Shown here: in pieces, positions 1,099 through 27,695 of the stretch
Position numbering within the stretch: position 1 is the stretch's first letter
Layout: the number at the start of each line of letters is the position of its first letter
DNA from: Escherichia phage Mu
Length of the DNA: 36,717 bases
Sequence record: NC_000929.1
Direction: 5' to 3' (one strand)
The notes under the pieces: generated by a model
Seen by the model: the letters and a program-made list of their open reading frames with translations, nothing else
Told to the model about the DNA's origin: nothing
The model's database searches: none
Program-made: the position numbers and the translations under genes

Positions 1099-1326
1099 AT
1101 GTGTTCCAACGAAAAGGCCCGTGATTGGCATCGTGCGGATGTGATTGCGGGACTTAAGAAAAGAAAGCTCTCTTTATCAGCTCTTTCCCGGCAGTTTGGT
1201 TATGCGCCAACTACATTAGCTAATGCGCTAGAACGACACTGGCCAAAGGGTGAGCAGATTATTGCTAACGCCTTAGAAACTAAACCGGAAGTAATCTGGC
1301 CTAGCCGATATCAAGCAGGTGAATAA
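1099..1326 (+). CDS. ner: Ner, small DNA-binding negative regulator of early transcription (75 aa)
   Basis: 75-aa ORF ([25 protein letters not shown]...) immediately downstream of the operator region with an AGGAGG RBS; recognised as Mu Ner. Confidence 0.92.
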
Positions 1327-1327
1327 C

Positions 1328-3319
1328 ATGGAACTTTGGGTATCACCGAAAGAGTGTGCGAATCTTCCTGGTTTGCCGAAAACATCGGCTGGTGTGATTT
1401 ATGTTGCTAAAAAGCAAGGATGGCAAAACCGCACTAGAGCAGGTGTCAAAGGTGGTAAAGCAATTGAATACAATGCGAACTCTTTACCTGTTGAAGCGAA
1501 AGCGGCGTTATTGCTGAGACAAGGAGAGATTGAAACAAGCCTGGGGTATTTTGAAATCGCCCGCCCCACGCTGGAAGCCCATGATTATGATCGTGAGGCA
1601 CTGTGGAGCAAATGGGATAACGCCAGCGATTCCCAGCGCAGACTTGCTGAAAAATGGTTGCCTGCGGTTCAGGCTGCAGACGAAATGCTGAACCAGGGGA
1701 TTTCAACGAAAACGGCTTTTGCGACCGTTGCAGGGCATTACCAGGTCAGCGCATCCACTTTGCGGGACAAGTATTACCAGGTACAGAAGTTTGCGAAGCC
1801 TGACTGGGCGGCTGCACTTGTTGATGGACGTGGAGCATCCCGTCGCAATGTTCACAAAAGTGAATTTGACGAGGATGCCTGGCAGTTTCTGATTGCAGAT
1901 TATCTGCGACCGGAAAAACCCGCTTTCCGCAAATGTTATGAGCGTCTGGAACTGGCAGCCCGCGAGCATGGCTGGAGTATTCCCTCCCGTGCCACGGCCT
2001 TTCGCCGGATTCAGCAACTGGACGAGGCAATGGTTGTTGCCTGTCGTGAAGGTGAACATGCACTGATGCATCTGATACCGGCACAGCAGCGAACTGTGGA
2101 ACACCTGGACGCCATGCAGTGGATCAACGGCGACGGTTATCTGCATAACGTCTTTGTACGCTGGTTTAACGGTGATGTGATCCGTCCGAAAACATGGTTC
2201 TGGCAGGATGTGAAAACCCGAAAAATTCTGGGCTGGCGCTGCGATGTGAGCGAGAACATTGATTCAATTCGCCTCTCGTTCATGGATGTTGTGACTCGCT
2301 ACGGTATCCCGGAGGATTTTCACATCACCATTGATAACACCCGTGGTGCTGCGAATAAATGGCTGACGGGAGGCGCGCCCAATCGCTACCGCTTTAAGGT
2401 AAAAGAGGACGATCCAAAAGGACTGTTTTTACTGATGGGGGCGAAAATGCACTGGACAAGCGTTGTTGCCGGTAAAGGCTGGGGCCAGGCAAAACCTGTT
2501 GAACGTGCTTTCGGTGTTGGTGGGCTTGAGGAATACGTTGATAAGCATCCGGCACTGGCTGGCGCATATACGGGGCCAAATCCGCAGGCAAAACCTGATA
2601 ACTATGGCGACCGCGCTGTTGATGCAGAGCTGTTTCTGAAAACCCTTGCCGAAGGTGTGGCGATGTTCAATGCCAGAACAGGCCGTGAAACAGAAATGTG
2701 CGGGGGCAAACTCTCGTTTGATGATGTTTTCGAGCGTGAATACGCCAGAACGATTGTGCGTAAGCCAACCGAAGAACAAAAACGGATGCTGTTACTGCCT
2801 GCCGAGGCGGTGAACGTTTCACGCAAAGGCGAGTTTACGCTTAAAGTTGGCGGCTCCCTTAAAGGCGCGAAAAACGTTTATTACAACATGGCATTAATGA
2901 ATGCCGGCGTGAAAAAAGTTGTGGTCAGGTTTGATCCGCAGCAGCTACACAGCACGGTTTATTGCTACACCCTGGACGGTCGGTTTATCTGTGAAGCGGA
3001 ATGTCTGGCACCTGTTGCATTTAATGATGCTGCGGCAGGCCGTGAATATCGCCGCCGCCAGAAACAACTGAAATCTGCGACGAAAGCAGCCATTAAGGCG
3101 CAGAAACAAATGGACGCGCTGGAAGTTGCTGAACTGCTGCCGCAGATAGCCGAACCAGCAGCACCAGAATCACGAATTGTTGGTATTTTCCGGCCTTCCG
3201 GTAATACGGAACGGGTGAAGAATCAGGAGCGTGATGATGAATACGAAACTGAGCGTGATGAATATCTGAATCATTCGCTGGATATTCTGGAACAGAACAG
3301 ACGTAAAAAAGCCATTTAA
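1328..3319 (+). CDS. A: Transposase MuA (DDE transposase, 663 aa)
   Basis: ATG at 1328 gives 663 aa beginning [18 protein letters not shown]; the ORF-track start at 1319 is a GTG just upstream. Size and sequence match MuA. Confidence 0.95.
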
Positions 3320-20532: not shown

Positions 20533-20954
20533 ATTACGCGACGGTAAATGACCTGTGCGCCCGCTATACACGTACGCGGCTGGATATTCTCACCCGCCCT
20601 AAAACAGCGGACGGGCAGCCGGATGATGCCGTGGCAGAACAGGCACTGGCAGATGCTTCGGCCTTTATTGATGGCTATCTCGCCGCGCGCTTTGTTCTGC
20701 CGCTTACCGTCGTCCCCTCACTGCTGAAACGGCAGTGTTGCGTGGTGGCCTGGTTTTATCTGAATGAATCACAACCCACCGAGCAGATCACCGCAACTTA
20801 CAGGGACACGGTGCGCTGGCTGGAACAGGTGCGCGATGGCAAAACAGATCCCGGCGTGGAAAGCAGAACGGCAGCGTCGCCGGAGGGAGAGGATCTTGTG
20901 CAGGTTCAGTCTGATCCGCCTGTTTTTTCACGAAAACAGAAGGGGTTTATCTGA
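20529..20954 (+). CDS. J: Head completion / head-tail joining protein J (141 aa)
   Basis: ATGA overlap with the previous gene; position fits the Mu gene order. Confidence 0.75.
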   Translation: MNYATVNDLCARYTRTRLDILTRPKTADGQPDDAVAEQALADASAFIDGYLAARFVLPLTVVPSLLKRQCCVVAWFYLNESQPTEQITATYRDTVRWLEQVRDGKTDPGVESRTAASPEGEDLVQVQSDPPVFSRKQKGFI

Positions 20955-21502
20955 TGCTGGAAGAAACCGAAGCCGCACTGCTGGCGCGCGTTCGTGAGTT
21001 GTTTGGGGCAACCCTGCGGCAGGTGGAACCCCTTACCGGCACATGGACTAATGAGGATGTGCACCGTCTCTTTCTGGCCCCGCCATCGGTATTTCTGGCA
21101 TGGATGGGCTGTGGTGAGGGGCGTACGCGTCGGGAAGTTGAAAGTCGCTGGGCATTTTTTGTCGTGGCGGAGTTGCTGAACGGGGAACCGGTAAACCGGC
21201 CCGGTATTTATCAGATTGTGGAGCGACTGATTGCCGGTGTTAACGGTCAGACGTTTGGCCCGACCACCGGGATGAGGCTGACGCAGGTCAGAAATCTTTG
21301 TGACGACAACCGTATCAATGCCGGTGTGGTGCTTTACGGCGTTCTGTTCAGTGGCACAACCCCGCTGCCGTCCGTAGTGGACCTGGATTCGCTGGATGAT
21401 TACGAGCGTCACTGGCAGACCTGGAAATTCCCGGACGAAACCCCGGAATTTGCCGCACATATCAATGTGAATCAGGAAAAGGATCATGATGCTGAAAATT
21501 AA
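20954..21502 (+). CDS. K: Tail-associated / neck protein K (182 aa)
   Basis: TGATG overlap with J; position fits the Mu gene order. Confidence 0.75.
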   Translation: MLEETEAALLARVRELFGATLRQVEPLTGTWTNEDVHRLFLAPPSVFLAWMGCGEGRTRREVESRWAFFVVAELLNGEPVNRPGIYQIVERLIAGVNGQTFGPTTGMRLTQVRNLCDDNRINAGVVLYGVLFSGTTPLPSVVDLDSLDDYERHWQTWKFPDETPEFAAHINVNQEKDHDAEN

Positions 21503-21692
21503 ACCCGCAGCGGGAAAAGCCATCCGTGACCCGCTCACGATGAAATTACTGGCGTCTGAGGGAGAAGAAAAGCCCCGTAACAGTTTCTGGATACGTCGCC
21601 TTGCAGCCGGTGATGTGGTTGAAGTCGGGAGCACCGAAAACACGGCGGATGATACCGACGCTGCGCCGAAAAAACGGAGTAAATCGAAATGA
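21486..21692 (+). CDS. Small hypothetical protein (68 aa)
   Basis: Short ORF overlapping K at its 5' end and L at its 3' end (ATGA). Confidence 0.6.
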
Positions 21693-23185: not shown

Positions 23186-23542
23186 ATGGCTGGAAATCAG
23201 CGTCAGGGGGTGGCGTTCATCCGTGTCAATGGCATGGAGCTTGAATCAATGGAAGGTGCCTCCTTCACGCCTTCCGGCATCACCCGTGAAGAAGTGACCG
23301 GCTCGCGGGTTTATGGCTGGAAAGGTAAACCTCGTGCCGCAAAAGTGGAATGCAAAATTCCGGGCGGTGGTCCCATCGGGCTGGATGAAATTATCGACTG
23401 GGAAAACATCACCGTCGAATTCCAGGCTGATACCGGTGAAACCTGGATGCTGGCGAATGCCTGGCAGGCGGATGAACCGAAAAACGACGGCGGCGAAATT
23501 TCGCTGGTACTGATGGCAAAACAAAGCAAACGCATTGCATAA
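23186..23542 (+). CDS. M: Tail tube protein M (118 aa)
   Basis: 118-aa ORF following the sheath gene with an AAGGAG RBS. Confidence 0.85.
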   Translation: MAGNQRQGVAFIRVNGMELESMEGASFTPSGITREEVTGSRVYGWKGKPRAAKVECKIPGGGPIGLDEIIDWENITVEFQADTGETWMLANAWQADEPKNDGGEISLVLMAKQSKRIA

Positions 23543-23551
23543 GGGGAAACA

Positions 23552-23986
23552 ATGGACGAAATGAATTTAGGTCCTGAAGCACAGGAACTGCATGACAGCA
23601 TTGTGGCAGAAATTCAGTCCGGCGTGCTGAAACTGAAAGACGGCCTGCCGTTCGGCACCGGTGACGAGACTGAAATGCAGTATGACGTGACGCTGCGTGA
23701 ACTGACCGCAGGCGATATGATTGATGCACAGGCGGCTGCTGAAAAGCTGGTAATGAGCAAGGAAGGTCCGGTGCTGGTCAGTTCCCCGTCCCGGATGGGA
23801 CTGGAAATGCTGCGCCGACAGATTGCCAGCGTGGGCTGCATCAAAGGCCCGTTGTCGATGGCGCTGATTCGTAAACTGTCTGTCGATGACTTCCAGCGTC
23901 TGTCGCTGGCCACAGAAATGTACGACATGGCTGTGGCGGCATCGCTGACACAAGAACGGGGGCGAGTGGCTGCGGTGCCGGAATGA
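23552..23986 (+). CDS. Y: Tail assembly chaperone Y (144 aa)
   Basis: Sits between the tube and tape-measure genes, the conserved chaperone position; GGGGAAAC upstream of the ATG. Confidence 0.78.
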   Translation: MDEMNLGPEAQELHDSIVAEIQSGVLKLKDGLPFGTGDETEMQYDVTLRELTAGDMIDAQAAAEKLVMSKEGPVLVSSPSRMGLEMLRRQIASVGCIKGPLSMALIRKLSVDDFQRLSLATEMYDMAVAASLTQERGRVAAVPE

Positions 23987-24116
23987 TATTGAGAAAGCGG
24001 CGACAGCGATTGGCGTTATTCTGAAAAGTGGCCCGGAATGGGCCTTGTCTCTCCCGCTGTCCCGCTTTTTCCGGCACTGCCAGCAGGCTAAAACCCTCTC
24101 TCAATATCACCGTTAA
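23949..24116 (+). other. Candidate frameshift-extension frame of the tail chaperone
   Basis: A stop-free frame of 55 codons overlaps the last 12 codons of Y and fills the Y-N gap, ending 15 nt before the N start codon. A GGGGG run at 23958-23962 lies inside the overlap. Translated by hand. Confidence 0.4.
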
Positions 24117-24130
24117 ATCAGGAAATATCT

Positions 24131-26203
24131 ATGACCGGGAAACGCTTAAAGGCGTCTGTCATTATTGATCTTAATGGCAATCTTTCCCGGCGTTCCCGCC
24201 AGTATTCGAACCAGATAAACGCCCTGTCCCGTAGCGGGCAAAGTTCCCTTCGTGCCCTGCGTATGGAGGTTGTGCGCGTTTCTGGTGCCATTGACAGAAT
24301 GGGTTCACTGTCAACCCGTACATTCCGAATGCTGTCAGCCGGGGCGCTGGGTATCGCTGGCGTGGGTTACACCGCCAATAAACTGTTTATTGGTGCAGCC
24401 GCCCAGCGTGAGCAGCAGATCATCGCCATGAACTCGCTGTATCACGGCGATAAGGTCAGAGCGCAGGCCATGATGGCCTGGGCGAAGCAGAACGCGAAGG
24501 ACACCACGTGGGGGCTGAGTGGTGTTCTGGATGAGATCCGTTCGTCGAAAGGCTTCGGCATGACGGATGAACAGACGAAACAGTTCATCACCATGTTGCA
24601 GGATCAGGGGGCCATGCACGGCTGGGATTTACCCACTGCACAGGGTGCCTCACTGCAACTGAAACAGATGTTTGCCCGCCAGCAAATCACAGCGGCGGAT
24701 GCCAACCTGCTGACCGGTTACGGTATCAACGTTTATCAGGCGCTGGCGGATGCAACGGGAACGGACGTTAAAAAAATCCGTGATCTGGGTACAAAGGGCA
24801 AGCTGGGCATGAAATCCATTCTGACGGTATTCAGAACGCTGTCAGAACAGTCAAAAGGTGCACAGGCCAGTGCGATGAACTCCTGGGACGGGATGTTCGC
24901 CCAGATGGAAGCCAACCTGCTTGAATTTCGCATAAAGGTGGCAAACAGCGGCCCCTTTGAAGAAATCAAGAACGAGATGCGCCGGGTGCTTAACTGGCAC
25001 GACATGGCGGATAAATCCGGGGAACTTGACGCACTGGCAGAAAACATTGGTCAGAAATTTCTGACCACGTTCAGAACGGTAAAAATCTCGGCGCAGGAAT
25101 TATGGCGCTGGCTGAAACCGGGTAAAGATGCGCTGGCATGGGTTGACCAGAATATTGTCAGCCTGAAAAAACTGGCTGCTGTTCTGGTGTCTGTCTGGCT
25201 TGCCAATAAAGCCCTGAGAGCAGGCTGGGCCGTGGCAAAACCCTCATGGCAGGTTGCCAGTTATCCGTTTAAAACCGGGCGTCGTATGTGGCGCTGGATG
25301 CGAAACCGCAAACGTGGGCAGGCAGGTCTGCCGGTCCCGGATGCCATGACGTCTGAGACGCTGTTGCAGGGTATCGGCATTCAGCGTGTGTTTGTCATCA
25401 ACTGGCCCCGTGGATTTGGTGACTACGGGAGTGGCGGCGGTCGTCGTGTACGGAGCGGCGGAAGAATGGCCCCGCTGTTACCCCGCCAGCCGTTATTGCT
25501 GTCCGGGCCACAGCCGCTGGCATTACCTGCACCACGCCCTGTACTGGCATTACCCCCACCCGGCGTACCGGTAACGGCACGGCCTGCACCATTACCTTTA
25601 CCCGGTAAATCCGGTCTTCTGAGCAGGCTTGCAGGCAGTGCTGCCGGGCAACTGGTTACGGGAACGGTCGGAAAGCTGGCTGATGCCGGGCGTGCCGTTG
25701 GCGGGTGGTTTTCCGGTATCGGAAACAAACTTGCAGGCAGTGCGATCGGTCGGGTTGTGACAAAAGGTGCCGGGGCGCTGGGCTGGATGGGGAAAGGTGC
25801 CGGTCGTGCGTTGTCACGTCTGGGGGGCCCGGTAATGGGGGCACTCCAGCTTGCCCCCGTCCTGATGGATGAGCAGGCGTCAACCCATGAAAAAGCAGGC
25901 GCAATTGGCAGTACAGCCGGTGCATGGCTCGGCGGTGCCGTTGGCAGCCTTGCCGGACCGCTGGGTACGGTTGCTGGTGCCACGCTGGGCAGTGTCGCCG
26001 GGGAGTATCTGGGCGGTTTTGTAACCGACCTGTATCAGAAATGGACGGCCACGGATAAGGAACCGCAGGAACAAAAAGTCAATGCGGAAGCCTCGCTGCG
26101 CGTCGAACTCGGCGAGGGGTTACGTCTGACCAGTTCCCGCGTCACCGAGGATGGTATGGGGCTGAATATTTACGCGGGCGATAACTACATTACGGGCTGG
26201 TAA
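24131..26203 (+). CDS. N: Tail tape measure protein N (690 aa)
   Basis: Large ORF after the chaperone; Ala/Gly-rich with a Pro-rich tract and Gly-rich C-terminal segments. Confidence 0.88.
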
Positions 26204-26207
26204 GACC

Positions 26208-27695
26208 ATGTTTGAAGATGCTTTAAATGCCGTTAATGCTGTCCGGGATAAAACCGGTGGAGGCAGGAAAACAACCGGCAAAGGCACGTTCCGTAACGTG
26301 CCGTTTCTCGTCATCGAGGAGCAAAAACAGGCTGGCGGACGTCGCCTGGTTAAACGCGAGTACCCGTTACGTGATACCGGCGGCGTCAATGACCTGGGGA
26401 AAAAGCTTCGCTCCCGTACATTCAGCGCCTGCATTCTGAACAGCAACGCAGAAACAGCCAGAGATGAAGCGGGTGCGCTGATGGATGCTCTTGATGCTCC
26501 GGGTAGCGGTGAGCTGGTACATCCTGATTTCGGCACTGTGGACGTCATGGTGGATTCATGGGAATGCCGCACTAAAGCGGATGAACTGAATTATTACGCG
26601 TTCACCGTTACCGTTTATCCGTCGTTGCAGGATACTGCCCCGGACGCAGAGACAGACACCAGTGCAGCCGTACCGGCACAGGCCGTTGCTGTAACCGGTT
26701 CTCTGGGAGATACGCTGTCCTCTGTCTGGCAAACCGTAAAAGATGGCACTGCGGCGGCAACCGCCGTGATGGAAGCTGTAACCGGTGTCATCGATGATAT
26801 CAGTGATGCGGTGGACAATCTGGGGGTTACGCAGACTGTCAGCGGTCTGATGGGATCGCTTTCTGCGATGAAAGGCTCTGTGACCAGCCTGATTAACCAG
26901 CCTGCCATGCTGGCCTCCTCGCTGATGGGGGCGCTGTCCGGCGTTTCATCGTTATGCGATACCCGGACAGCATTTTCCACATGGAACCGTCTGGCGCAGC
27001 GATTCGAACGTCGCCATGCCGCCACCGCAGGCAGACAGGGGACAATCACAACCTCGTACAACAGTCCGGTTGCAGAAAAAAATATTGCCACACTGAACTA
27101 CGTCATGCTGGCAGCGGCGCAGACATACCGGGCAGAAGCTGCCAGCCAGGCACTGACTGCGGCACTGGATTTCAGTCGCCGGATGGATAATGCCGCCCGT
27201 GCACCTGTACTGGATGCCCCGTCCACCACAACCGGCACAGCCAGCGGGGCCAGCAGCACATCTGCTACCGTCACACAGGGACAGTTACAGTTAACTGCCA
27301 TAACCCCGGACGGCGGCTTTTCACAGGTATCCTTTTCAGACAGTGGTACAGCCACGCCCCCGGTATTTGAAAGTGTGTCCGATATCGAAAAAACCACTGC
27401 CATGCTGGGGGCGGCGCTGGATAGCGTCATTCTGACGGCATCTGAGCAGGGTTTTTCGACAGACAGTGTTCAGCTTACGCAACTGCGTCTGCTGGTTGTT
27501 GCCGACCTGGAAAAACGCGGGCTGCAACTGGCGGGTAGTGAATCACACCACCTGCCAGAAACGCTCCCGGCAATGGTTGCACTGTACCGGTTCACCGGAA
27601 ACAGCCGGAACTGGCAACGGCTGGCCCGCAGGAACGGTATCAGCAACCCGTTATTTGTTCCCGGTGGTGTCAGTATTGAGGTGATTAATGAGTAA
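26208..27695 (+). CDS. P: Tail/baseplate protein P (495 aa)
   Basis: ORF immediately after the tape measure gene; the Mu-order letter assignment is from memory. Confidence 0.8.

What the first reader, a model, noticed from the sequence alone, without database searches (positions are those of the whole stretch)
23949..24116. Candidate programmed frameshift extending the tail chaperone across the Y-N gap
A second reading frame is open for 55 codons, starting 12 codons before the Y stop codon and ending 15 nt before the tape-measure start. A run of five G (23958-23962) inside the overlap could serve as a slip site. Because the extension frame is +1 relative to Y, the shift would have to be +1 or -2, not the usual -1. 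This is the conserved position where tailed phages make a chaperone-extension fusion by frameshifting.
Basis: seen in the sequence. Interest (0 to 1): 0.5.

Follow-up and report, generated by a model that had tools for sequence, protein, structure and literature searches.

The report
Phage Mu tail-chaperone −2 frameshift site
This is the already published programmed frameshift of phage Mu, where a few ribosomes slip on a run of five G at the end of tail-chaperone gene Y (gp41) and add a 51-residue tail; it is real and strongly conserved, but it is not new.

Summary
The window is the complete phage Mu genome. Gene Y/gp41 (23552-23986) is a tail assembly chaperone lying between the tail tube gene and the tape-measure gene. 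A +1/−2 frame is open from 23949 to 24116. A G5 run (23958-23962) sits in the overlap as CGG-GGG-CGA.

In Mu alone the open frame is barely beyond chance (P about 0.05). Comparison with relatives is decisive. Of 91 distinct relatives (37-100% protein identity, E. coli to Vibrio, Aeromonas and Bilophila), 87 keep an in-phase NNG-GGG-CGA and a +1 frame open to the tape-measure start. The extension shows a coding signature in that frame only.

The base before the GGG codon is G in 87 of 87 sites, although CGG and AGG make up only 16% of Arg codons elsewhere in these genes. A −2 re-pairing (GGG to GGG) needs that G. A +1 slip does not.

This is the −2 frameshift of Xu, Hendrix and Duda (2004), cited as about 2.2% efficient. 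Genome annotations still omit it or list the extension as an orphan ORF. No 3′ stimulatory RNA structure is supported in Mu. Distant clades show a significant hairpin 5-7 nt downstream of CGA.

The parts
23186..23542 (+). Tail tube gene (gp40/M), the upstream neighbour
   Evidence: Pfam Tail_tube PF10618, E=2.5e-36. Annotated as tail tube protein in D108 and in the E. coli W prophage.
23552..23986 (+). Gene Y / gp41, tail assembly chaperone; the zero-frame product is 144 aa
   Evidence: ORF. Pfam Gp41_Mu PF23746 E=9e-35 and Phage_TAC_7. phrog_508 'tail assembly chaperone' E=9e-47.
23957..23965 (+). Slip site CGG-GGG-CGA (G5 run 23958-23962). Proposed event: P-site tRNA-Gly on GGG (23960-62) re-pairs 2 nt upstream on GGG (23958-60), and the next codon read is GGC (23961-63).
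   Evidence: The sequence shows the site. In-phase NNG-GGG-CGA is found in 87 of 91 distinct relatives: CGG 79, AGG 5, others 3, and CGA 87 of 87. The footprint of allowed shift positions across relatives is 8 nt + GGG + 6 nt. The re-pairing step itself is inferred.
23961..24116 (+). Extension read after the shift: 51 codons (GEWLRCRNDIEK...SQYHR) plus TAA. The -2 fusion product is 188 aa.
   Evidence: Translation. 50% of codon differences are synonymous in this frame, against 19% and 6% in the other two frames. The peptide is conserved in relatives. It matches phrog_12783 at E=5e-30. There is no ATG or GTG in this frame in Mu.
23949..24116 (+).
24131..26203 (+). Tape-measure protein gene gp42, the downstream neighbour and presumed client of the chaperone
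   Evidence: Pfam TMP_3 PF20155, E=1.9e-16. Annotated as tape measure protein in relatives.

Best explanation
A programmed -2 ribosomal frameshift makes a minor fusion protein from gene Y/gp41. Most ribosomes read Y to its stop and make the 144-aa tail assembly chaperone. A small fraction shift when tRNA-Gly occupies the P site on GGG (23960-62) and the A site shows CGA. The tRNA slides back two bases onto the identical GGG (23958-60). Decoding resumes at GGC (23961) and runs to the TAA at 24114-16. The result is a 188-aa protein: the first 137 residues of gp41 followed by 51 new residues (...TQERG-GEWLRC...). By analogy with lambda gpG/gpGT, both forms would bind the tape-measure protein gp42 through the shared chaperone part. 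The rare extension would recruit the tail tube protein to start polymerisation, and neither form would end up in the virion. Shown here: the anatomy, the family-wide conservation of motif, phase and open frame, and the coding signature of the extension. Taken from the literature: that a fusion is made, that the shift is -2, and that efficiency is about 2%. Inferred: the P-site slippage details and the division of labour between the two products in Mu.
For: Anatomy. Gene context of tail tube, chaperone and tape measure. Conservation: 87 of 91 distinct loci at 37-100% identity keep in-phase NNG-GGG-CGA and a +1 frame open for 37-52 codons, ending within about 20 nt of the tape-measure start in most; the -1 frame is not conserved. 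Across relatives the shift is confined to a 17-nt window centred on the G-run. Close relatives in IMG/VR have G5 in 19 contigs and never G4 or G6. Coding signature of the extension in the +1 frame only. Direction: the wobble base of the preceding codon is G in 87 of 87 sites, against 16% CGG+AGG among Arg codons elsewhere in these genes. That position is not constrained by the untranslated +1 frame upstream of the shift. It gives perfect GGG-to-GGG re-pairing for -2, whereas +1 re-pairing on GGC is always imperfect. Literature: a -2 frameshift in Mu tail assembly genes, Xu et al. [quoted passage not shown] The lambda gpG/gpGT functional model is from PMC5009743.
Against: The primary paper (Xu et al. 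2004) is not held, so I could not confirm that its mapped site and junction peptide match this G-run exactly. Sequence alone cannot separate -2 from +1, because both enter the same frame and differ by one Gly. The 87 loci are related, so the wobble-G count is not 87 independent trials. Part of the CGA invariance follows from the dual-coding constraint (GGC-GA[D/E] in the new frame). Two lineages have only G4 in phase (CAG-GGG-CGA and TCG-GGG-CGA), where -2 re-pairing would mismatch at the first codon position. No significant 3' stimulatory structure was found in Mu (z = -0.3 and +0.14). The functional roles of the two Mu products are extrapolated from lambda.
Confidence: 0.9

Rival explanations
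1. A +1 ribosomal frameshift at the same site. tRNA-Gly on GGG (23960-62) slips forward one base onto GGC, or the first base of the next codon is skipped. This gives a 187-aa fusion (...QERGEWLRC...), one Gly shorter than the -2 product.
For: The new frame is the same, so every conservation result fits equally well. The two G4 lineages (CAG-GGG-CGA and TCG-GGG-CGA) suit +1 at least as well as -2. The reporter assay in the 2025 preprint cannot tell -2 from +1. CGA in the A site could act as a slow codon, as in known +1 sites (own knowledge).
Against: The literature assigns -2. The two G upstream of the GGG codon are conserved (wobble G 87 of 87 against 16% expected), which +1 does not require. 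The base after GGG is always C, so +1 re-pairing is never perfect.
Confidence: 0.06
2. Transcriptional slippage by RNA polymerase on the G5 run makes a minority of mRNAs with G7 (same protein as -2) or G4 (same protein as +1). Standard translation of those mRNAs then gives the fusion.
For: A homopolymer is present, and the predicted proteins are identical to the ribosomal products. None of the held papers reports transcript sequencing for Mu.
Against: Five bases is well below the run length at which bacterial RNA polymerase slips efficiently, which is about 8-9 and mostly A or T (own knowledge). The run is fixed at exactly five, in a fixed codon phase, with a conserved CGA next to it. Codon phase matters to ribosomes, not to polymerase. 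The field classifies this case as ribosomal.
Confidence: 0.02
3. The +1 frame is a separate small gene ('41.5', about 48 aa) with its own start codon, as annotated in phage D108 and collected in PHROG 12783. There is no recoding.
For: The D108 RefSeq record annotates a separate CDS 41.5. PHROGs holds a 54-aa family of such ORFs.
Against: In Mu this frame has no ATG or GTG, and its first canonical start (TTG) would leave only about 22 codons. No ATG or GTG occurs in the first 12 codons in 46 of 87 relatives. Conservation of the peptide begins right at the G-run (GEWLRCR...), and the invariant motif lies in the chaperone's frame. Fused forms read straight through.
Confidence: 0.015
4. A chance open frame in a non-coding spacer between Y and the tape-measure gene.
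For: On Mu alone, P(55 open codons) is about 0.05, and G5 runs are common (28 in the genome).
Against: The frame stays open in 87 of 91 distinct relatives down to 37% identity. It has a synonymous-substitution excess specific to that frame, and its end is tied to the tape-measure start.
Confidence: 0.005

Closest known systems
Phage Mu gp41 (Y) -2 programmed frameshift (Xu, Hendrix and Duda, Mol Cell 2004; Baranov et al., Trends Genet 2006)
   Same: This is the same locus in the same phage. The window has Mu's length and termini and matches the Mu fragment AB000833 at 99.7%. The frame relation (+1/-2) and the position between the chaperone and tape-measure genes are the same.
   Different: Nothing substantive. 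I could not read the primary paper to compare the exact mapped site.
Phage lambda gpG/gpGT -1 frameshift
   Same: A tail assembly chaperone gene just upstream of the tape-measure gene. A low-efficiency shift near its 3' end adds an extension that ends at the tape-measure gene. Two products are made in a fixed ratio (PMC5009743).
   Different: Lambda shifts -1 on a canonical heptamer by tandem slippage. Mu shifts -2 on a G5 run with a single re-pairing tRNA. No sequence similarity was detected: the extension hits no Pfam family.
Phage P2 gpE/gpE+E' -1 frameshift
   Same: A contractile-tailed phage. The chaperone belongs to the same Pfam family as Mu gp41 (Phage_TAC_7, 'E, or 41 or 14'), and the gene position is the same.
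   Different: The direction is -1, and the reported efficiency is 2-3 fold higher than in lambda. The Mu match to Phage_TAC_7 is marginal (24.7 bits against a cutoff of 25).
Arterivirus (PRRSV) nsp2TF -2 frameshift
   Same: A -2 shift that gives access to the +1 frame and makes a C-terminally different protein (PMC5009743).
   Different: It occurs on eukaryotic ribosomes, is about 20% efficient, and is stimulated in trans by a viral protein bound downstream. It is unrelated in sequence and function.
E. coli prfB (RF2) +1 frameshift
   Same: A single P-site tRNA slips into the +1 frame in a bacterium, and the A-site codon is poorly decoded.
   Different: RF2 uses an in-frame stop codon and an upstream Shine-Dalgarno stimulator, and it is regulatory and efficient. 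Mu has a sense codon (CGA), low efficiency and the opposite direction of movement.

Membership tests
G/GT-type tail assembly chaperone frameshift (Xu et al. 2004) | Located between the major tail/tube gene and the tape-measure gene | tested here: met
   Tail_tube at 23186-23542, chaperone at 23552-23986, TMP_3 at 24131-26203.
G/GT-type tail assembly chaperone frameshift (Xu et al. 2004) | The upstream ORF is a tail assembly chaperone | tested here: met
   Pfam Gp41_Mu E=9e-35; phrog_508 'tail assembly chaperone' E=9e-47.
G/GT-type tail assembly chaperone frameshift (Xu et al. 2004) | A second frame overlaps the 3' end, lacks its own start, and runs to the tape-measure start | tested here: met
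   The frame is open 23949-24116 with no ATG or GTG, and ends 14 nt before the tape-measure ATG. In relatives its end lies within about 20 nt of the tape-measure start in most loci.
G/GT-type tail assembly chaperone frameshift (Xu et al. 2004) | A slippery sequence in the overlap, conserved in relatives independently of protein similarity | tested here: met
   NNG-GGG-CGA is in phase in 87 of 91 distinct loci at 37-100% identity. The footprint is 17 nt.
G/GT-type tail assembly chaperone frameshift (Xu et al. 2004) | A fusion protein is actually made at a low fixed ratio | not testable with these tools
   Literature only: about 2.2% (PMC3498833); 14% for the 10-mer in a cell-free system.
G/GT-type tail assembly chaperone frameshift (Xu et al. 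2004) | Both products are required for tail assembly and are absent from virions | not testable with these tools
   Shown for lambda (PMC5009743). I found no such data for Mu in the held papers.
Canonical -1 programmed frameshift (X XXY YYZ) | The new frame is -1 and a heptamer allows tandem re-pairing | tested here: not met
   The -1 frame closes 12 codons after the Y stop and is not conserved. The conserved open frame is +1/-2.
-2 programmed ribosomal frameshift | The P-site tRNA can re-pair fully two bases upstream | tested here: met
   GGG (23960-62) to GGG (23958-60). The required upstream G at the wobble position is present in 87 of 87 sites against 16% expected.
-2 programmed ribosomal frameshift | A 3' stimulatory element at a short spacer | tested here: inconclusive
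   Mu shows no significant structure (z = -0.3 and +0.14) and no covariation. Distant clades show a hairpin 5-7 nt after CGA with z from -2.5 to -5.2 and modest covariation.
Transcriptional slippage | A long homopolymer (about 8-9 or more) whose position is independent of codon phase | tested here: not met
   The run is 5 G, in a fixed phase, in 84 of 87 sites, and never G4 or G6 in 19 close IMG/VR relatives.

The most novel reading that the evidence does not exclude
The -2 site may not be peculiar to Mu. It may be an ancient, nearly invariant CGG-GGG-CGA recoding signal shared by the whole Gp41_Mu chaperone family, from Enterobacteriaceae to Vibrio, Aeromonas, Shewanella, Rheinheimera and Bilophila prophages. 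In the non-Mu clades it would be paired with a large hairpin of about 60-68 nt starting 5-7 nt after CGA and acting as a 3' stimulator. Mu itself would have lost or weakened that structure. Two lineages that have only G4 may have switched to +1. I do not know whether the hairpin has been described, because the primary paper could not be read.
Probability: 0.3. Interest if true: 0.35.

Novelty: already known. Interest (0 to 1): 0.12.

Why it matters
[quoted passage not shown] For this scan its value is as a validation: a reader working from raw sequence recovered a published recoding event. Two practical points follow. First, RefSeq/PGAP leaves the 144-nt gap unannotated, while the D108 record and PHROGs list the extension as an orphan hypothetical protein, so annotation could be corrected across the family using the NNG-GGG-CGA rule. 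Second, the family-wide conservation and the hairpins in distant clades suggest simple experiments on what makes a ribosome move back two bases.

Tried and rejected
- The word-indexed homologue search with the 52-aa extension alone returned nothing, which is a limit of the method. The extension was recovered instead from DNA loci and from PHROGs.
- Pfam has no family for the extension.
- No PDB chain matches the fusion protein.
- Rfam gave only a chance snoRNA-like hit on the opposite strand.
- The primary paper (Xu et al. 2004) is not held, and none of the held papers prints the Mu slip sequence.
- RNAalifold found no meaningful consensus structure downstream of the site in the Mu clade or in the Vibrio-type clade.
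- Mu's own MFE hairpin (23968-24033) is pairable in 85% of cells across its clade. However, it was derived from Mu, only 2 pairs show compensatory change, and it folds no better than shuffles. I rejected it as evidence of a stimulator.
- Homology between the extension families is only weakly supported (hhalign E=2.4e-4, probability 44%, a shared LPL[SR]RL.R motif).
- The second GGGGGCGA, at 2437, lies in a different codon phase inside the long ORF 1295-3319 and is irrelevant.
- I did not run structure prediction of the fusion. Only three fused sequences were admissible, so the extension would have had too shallow an alignment.

Full report
**Identity of the window.** The window is 36,717 bp. 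It starts TGTATTGATTCACTTGAAGTACGAAAAA and ends ...CGTGCGCCGCTTCA. I recognise these as the phage Mu left and right ends, from my own knowledge. The region of the finding is 99.7% identical to the Mu fragment AB000833. It is 94-98% identical to D108, SfMu and several Yersinia Mu-like phages. It is 100% identical over 589 bp to prophages in E. coli W and other strains. This is the complete phage Mu genome.

**The observation.** All coordinates are correct.
- Gene Y/gp41 is 23552-23986 (144 aa).
- In the frame +1 to Y, a TGA at 23946-48 is followed by 55 open codons (23949-24113) and a TAA at 24114-16.
- The next gene starts at ATG 24131.
- GGGGG is at 23958-62 and reads CGG|GGG|CGA (R-G-R) in the Y frame.
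- The -1 frame closes 12 codons after the Y stop.

On Mu alone this is weak evidence. Stops occur at 5.4% of alternative-frame codons, so 55 open codons has P of about 0.05. G5 runs occur 28 times on the + strand. GGGGGCGA occurs twice in the genome against 1.4 expected.

**Context.** The upstream gene hits Pfam Tail_tube (E=2.5e-36). Y hits Gp41_Mu (E=9e-35) and, marginally, Phage_TAC_7 ('E, or 41 or 14'). The 690-aa downstream gene hits TMP_3. The gene after that, at 26208-27695, corresponds to the gene that carries the DNA_circ_N family in the relative L003.

**Comparative test.** I collected Y homologues and aligned them. The R-G-R at the slip position is invariant or nearly so. I used the alignment to fetch 26 loci from bacterial genomes and 80 from viral contigs. 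These gave 91 distinct sequences for the region, spanning 37-100% protein identity to Mu Y. Hosts include Escherichia, Shigella, Kluyvera, Erwinia, Aeromonas, Vibrio, Photobacterium, Shewanella, Rheinheimera, Marinomonas and Bilophila.
- 87 of the 91 have NNG-GGG-CGA in the same codon phase near the end of the chaperone gene: CGG 79, AGG 5, GGG 1, CAG 1, TCG 1. The following codon is CGA in 87 of 87.
- In all 87 the +1 frame is open from the motif for a further 37-52 codons.
- In most loci the +1 frame ends within about 20 nt of the first start codon of the tape-measure-like ORF.
- The -1 frame shows no such conservation.
- In each genome the shift must fall between the last upstream +1-frame stop and the chaperone's own stop. 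Intersecting these windows across genomes leaves 8 nt, the GGG codon and 6 nt.
- Among close Mu relatives in IMG/VR the run is G5 in 19 contigs and never G4 or G6.

**The extension is translated.** I compared 31 members of the Mu-type extension family in the part downstream of the Y stop. In the +1 frame, 50% of codon differences are synonymous. In the other two frames the figures are 19% and 6%. The peptide is conserved from its first residues (GEWLRCRNDIEK...). Mu has no ATG or GTG anywhere in this frame. Extensions in other clades have diverged beyond easy recognition, but they keep the same length (about 47-52 residues). They also share a C-terminal LPL[SR]RL.R motif at the same position, though support for homology is weak (hhalign E=2.4e-4, probability 44%).

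**Direction of the shift.** A -2 shift and a +1 shift enter the same frame and differ by one glycine: a 188-aa product ...QERGGEWL... against a 187-aa product ...QERGEWL.... The sequences offer one discriminating feature. A -2 shift of tRNA-Gly from GGG (23960-62) to 23958-60 needs G at 23958 and 23959. Position 23959 is the wobble base of the preceding Arg codon. It is free to vary in the Y frame, and it is not translated in the +1 frame upstream of the shift. It is G in 87 of 87 sites, although CGG plus AGG make up only 16% of Arg codons elsewhere in these same genes. The base after GGG is always C, so +1 re-pairing (on GGC) is never perfect. The loci are related, so this is not 87 independent trials, but they span many clades with abundant synonymous change elsewhere. 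This agrees with the literature. Part of the CGA invariance is explained by the dual-coding constraint (GGC-GA[D/E] in the new frame). The exclusive use of C rather than A at its first base is not explained that way. It fits a slow CGA in the old frame and a fast GGC in the new frame, which is an inference.

**Literature.**
[quoted passage not shown] It cites Xu, Hendrix and Duda 2004 and Baranov et al. 2006.
- PMC5009743 lists Mu among the users of -2 frameshifting. It also gives the lambda gpG/gpGT model: both forms bind the tape-measure protein, the T part binds the major tail subunit, the ratio is 30:1, and neither is in virions.
- PMC4378225 calls the Mu -2 shift exceptional.
- A 2025 preprint used the Mu 10-mer as a positive control and measured 14% shifting in a cell-free system. 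Its authors note that their reporter cannot separate -2 from +1.
- The primary paper is not held.

**Stimulatory RNA.**
- In Mu, the 75-95 nt after CGA fold no better than dinucleotide shuffles (z = -0.31 and +0.14).
- RNAalifold finds no covarying structure in the Mu clade.
- Mu's own MFE hairpin shows only 2 compensated pairs across that clade.
- Rfam has nothing here.
- Nine distant lineages tested with dinucleotide shuffles fold into a large hairpin that begins 5-7 nt after CGA and spans 60-68 nt. These are Aeromonas-type L073, L077, L066, L097, L105, L018, L080, L024 and L019. Their z-scores run from -2.5 to -5.2, with 0-2 of 200 shuffles as stable.
- The stem sequences differ between lineages (CUGAUGG/CCAUCAG, GGCGCU/AGCGUC, GGUACUG/CAGUACC).
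- An explicit structure tested on 15 such sequences pairs in 69% of cells against 34-45% when slid. Its covariation score was reached by 3 of 500 shuffles. The register shifts between sub-clades, and the structure was taken from one member.
- I regard a 3' stimulator as plausible in those clades and unsupported in Mu.

**Exceptions and annotation.** The four loci without the motif (L002, L003, L007/L055, L009) have G4. That fuses the frames in the DNA and gives ...RGEWL... proteins such as P0001, P0003 and P0031. L002 comes from an assembly whose sheath and tape-measure genes are broken into pieces. L007/L055 has a second indel just downstream. These look like homopolymer errors or decaying prophages. 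L003 has intact neighbouring genes, so it may be a genuine variant. In databases, RefSeq/PGAP annotates only the 144-aa form and leaves the gap empty. The D108 record lists a separate CDS '41.5'. PHROGs holds the extension as a 54-aa family of unknown function.

**Verdict.** The feature is the published phage Mu -2 programmed frameshift in the tail assembly chaperone gene. It is already known, so interest for discovery is low. The by-products of this check are the family-wide invariance of CGG-GGG-CGA, the wobble-G argument for -2, and the downstream hairpins in distant clades.

Noticed in passing
L019:1825-1899, L080:1819-1893, L105:1819-1893, L018:1807-1881, L024:1789-1863, L066:1825-1899, L073:1798-1872, L097:1819-1893, L077:1855-1929: In distant members of the gp41 family (Vibrio, Shewanella, Rheinheimera, Aeromonas-type prophages), a large hairpin of 60-68 nt starts 5-7 nt after the conserved CGA. 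Its z-scores run from -2.5 to -5.2 against dinucleotide shuffles, and the stem sequences differ between lineages. It is a candidate 3' stimulator of the -2 shift. Mu itself shows no significant structure at 23966-24060.
   Followed up: partly
L003:3406-3416; L002:3445-3455; L007 and L055:1882-1892; L009:1900-1910 (proteins P0001, P0003, P0031): A few assemblies have G4 instead of G5 at the slip site, which fuses chaperone and extension into one 187-199 aa ORF (...RGEWLRC...). L002 and L007/L055 carry other indels nearby, so they look like homopolymer errors or decaying prophages. L003 has intact neighbouring genes and may be a genuine constitutive-fusion variant.
   Followed up: partly
L063:1861-1959, L064:1867-1965, L008:1867-1965: There are variant slip sites. 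Two lineages have only four G in phase (CAG-GGG-CGA and TCG-GGG-CGA), where -2 re-pairing would mismatch at the first codon position, so +1 may be used there. One lineage has seven G (CAG-GGG-GGG-CGA). All keep the open +1 extension.
   Followed up: no
window 23987-24130; L001:2285-2431 (D108 '41.5'); L129:1036-1179 (E. coli W prophage): Annotation is inconsistent. RefSeq/PGAP leaves the 144-nt gap between the chaperone and tape-measure genes empty. The D108 record calls the extension a separate hypothetical protein 41.5. PHROGs holds it as phrog_12783, 'unknown function'. None records the recoding.
   Followed up: yes
The gene after the gap is the tape-measure gene gp42 (TMP_3). The next gene, at 26208-27695, matches baseplate-hub and DNA-circularisation PHROG families here, and its counterpart in the relative L003 carries DNA_circ_N. 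That gene is N.
   Followed up: yes
window 2437-2444: This is the only other GGGGGCGA in the genome. It lies inside the long ORF 1295-3319 in a different codon phase (AUG-GGG-GCG-AAA), and the alternative frames around it are short. It is not a second slip site.
   Followed up: yes
window 21486-21692: A 68-aa ORF overlaps the end of the 182-aa gene 20954-21502 by 17 nt in the +1 frame. It corresponds to gp38 (DUF2635) in D108. It starts with an ATG, so it looks like an ordinary overlapping gene rather than a recoding event.
   Followed up: no
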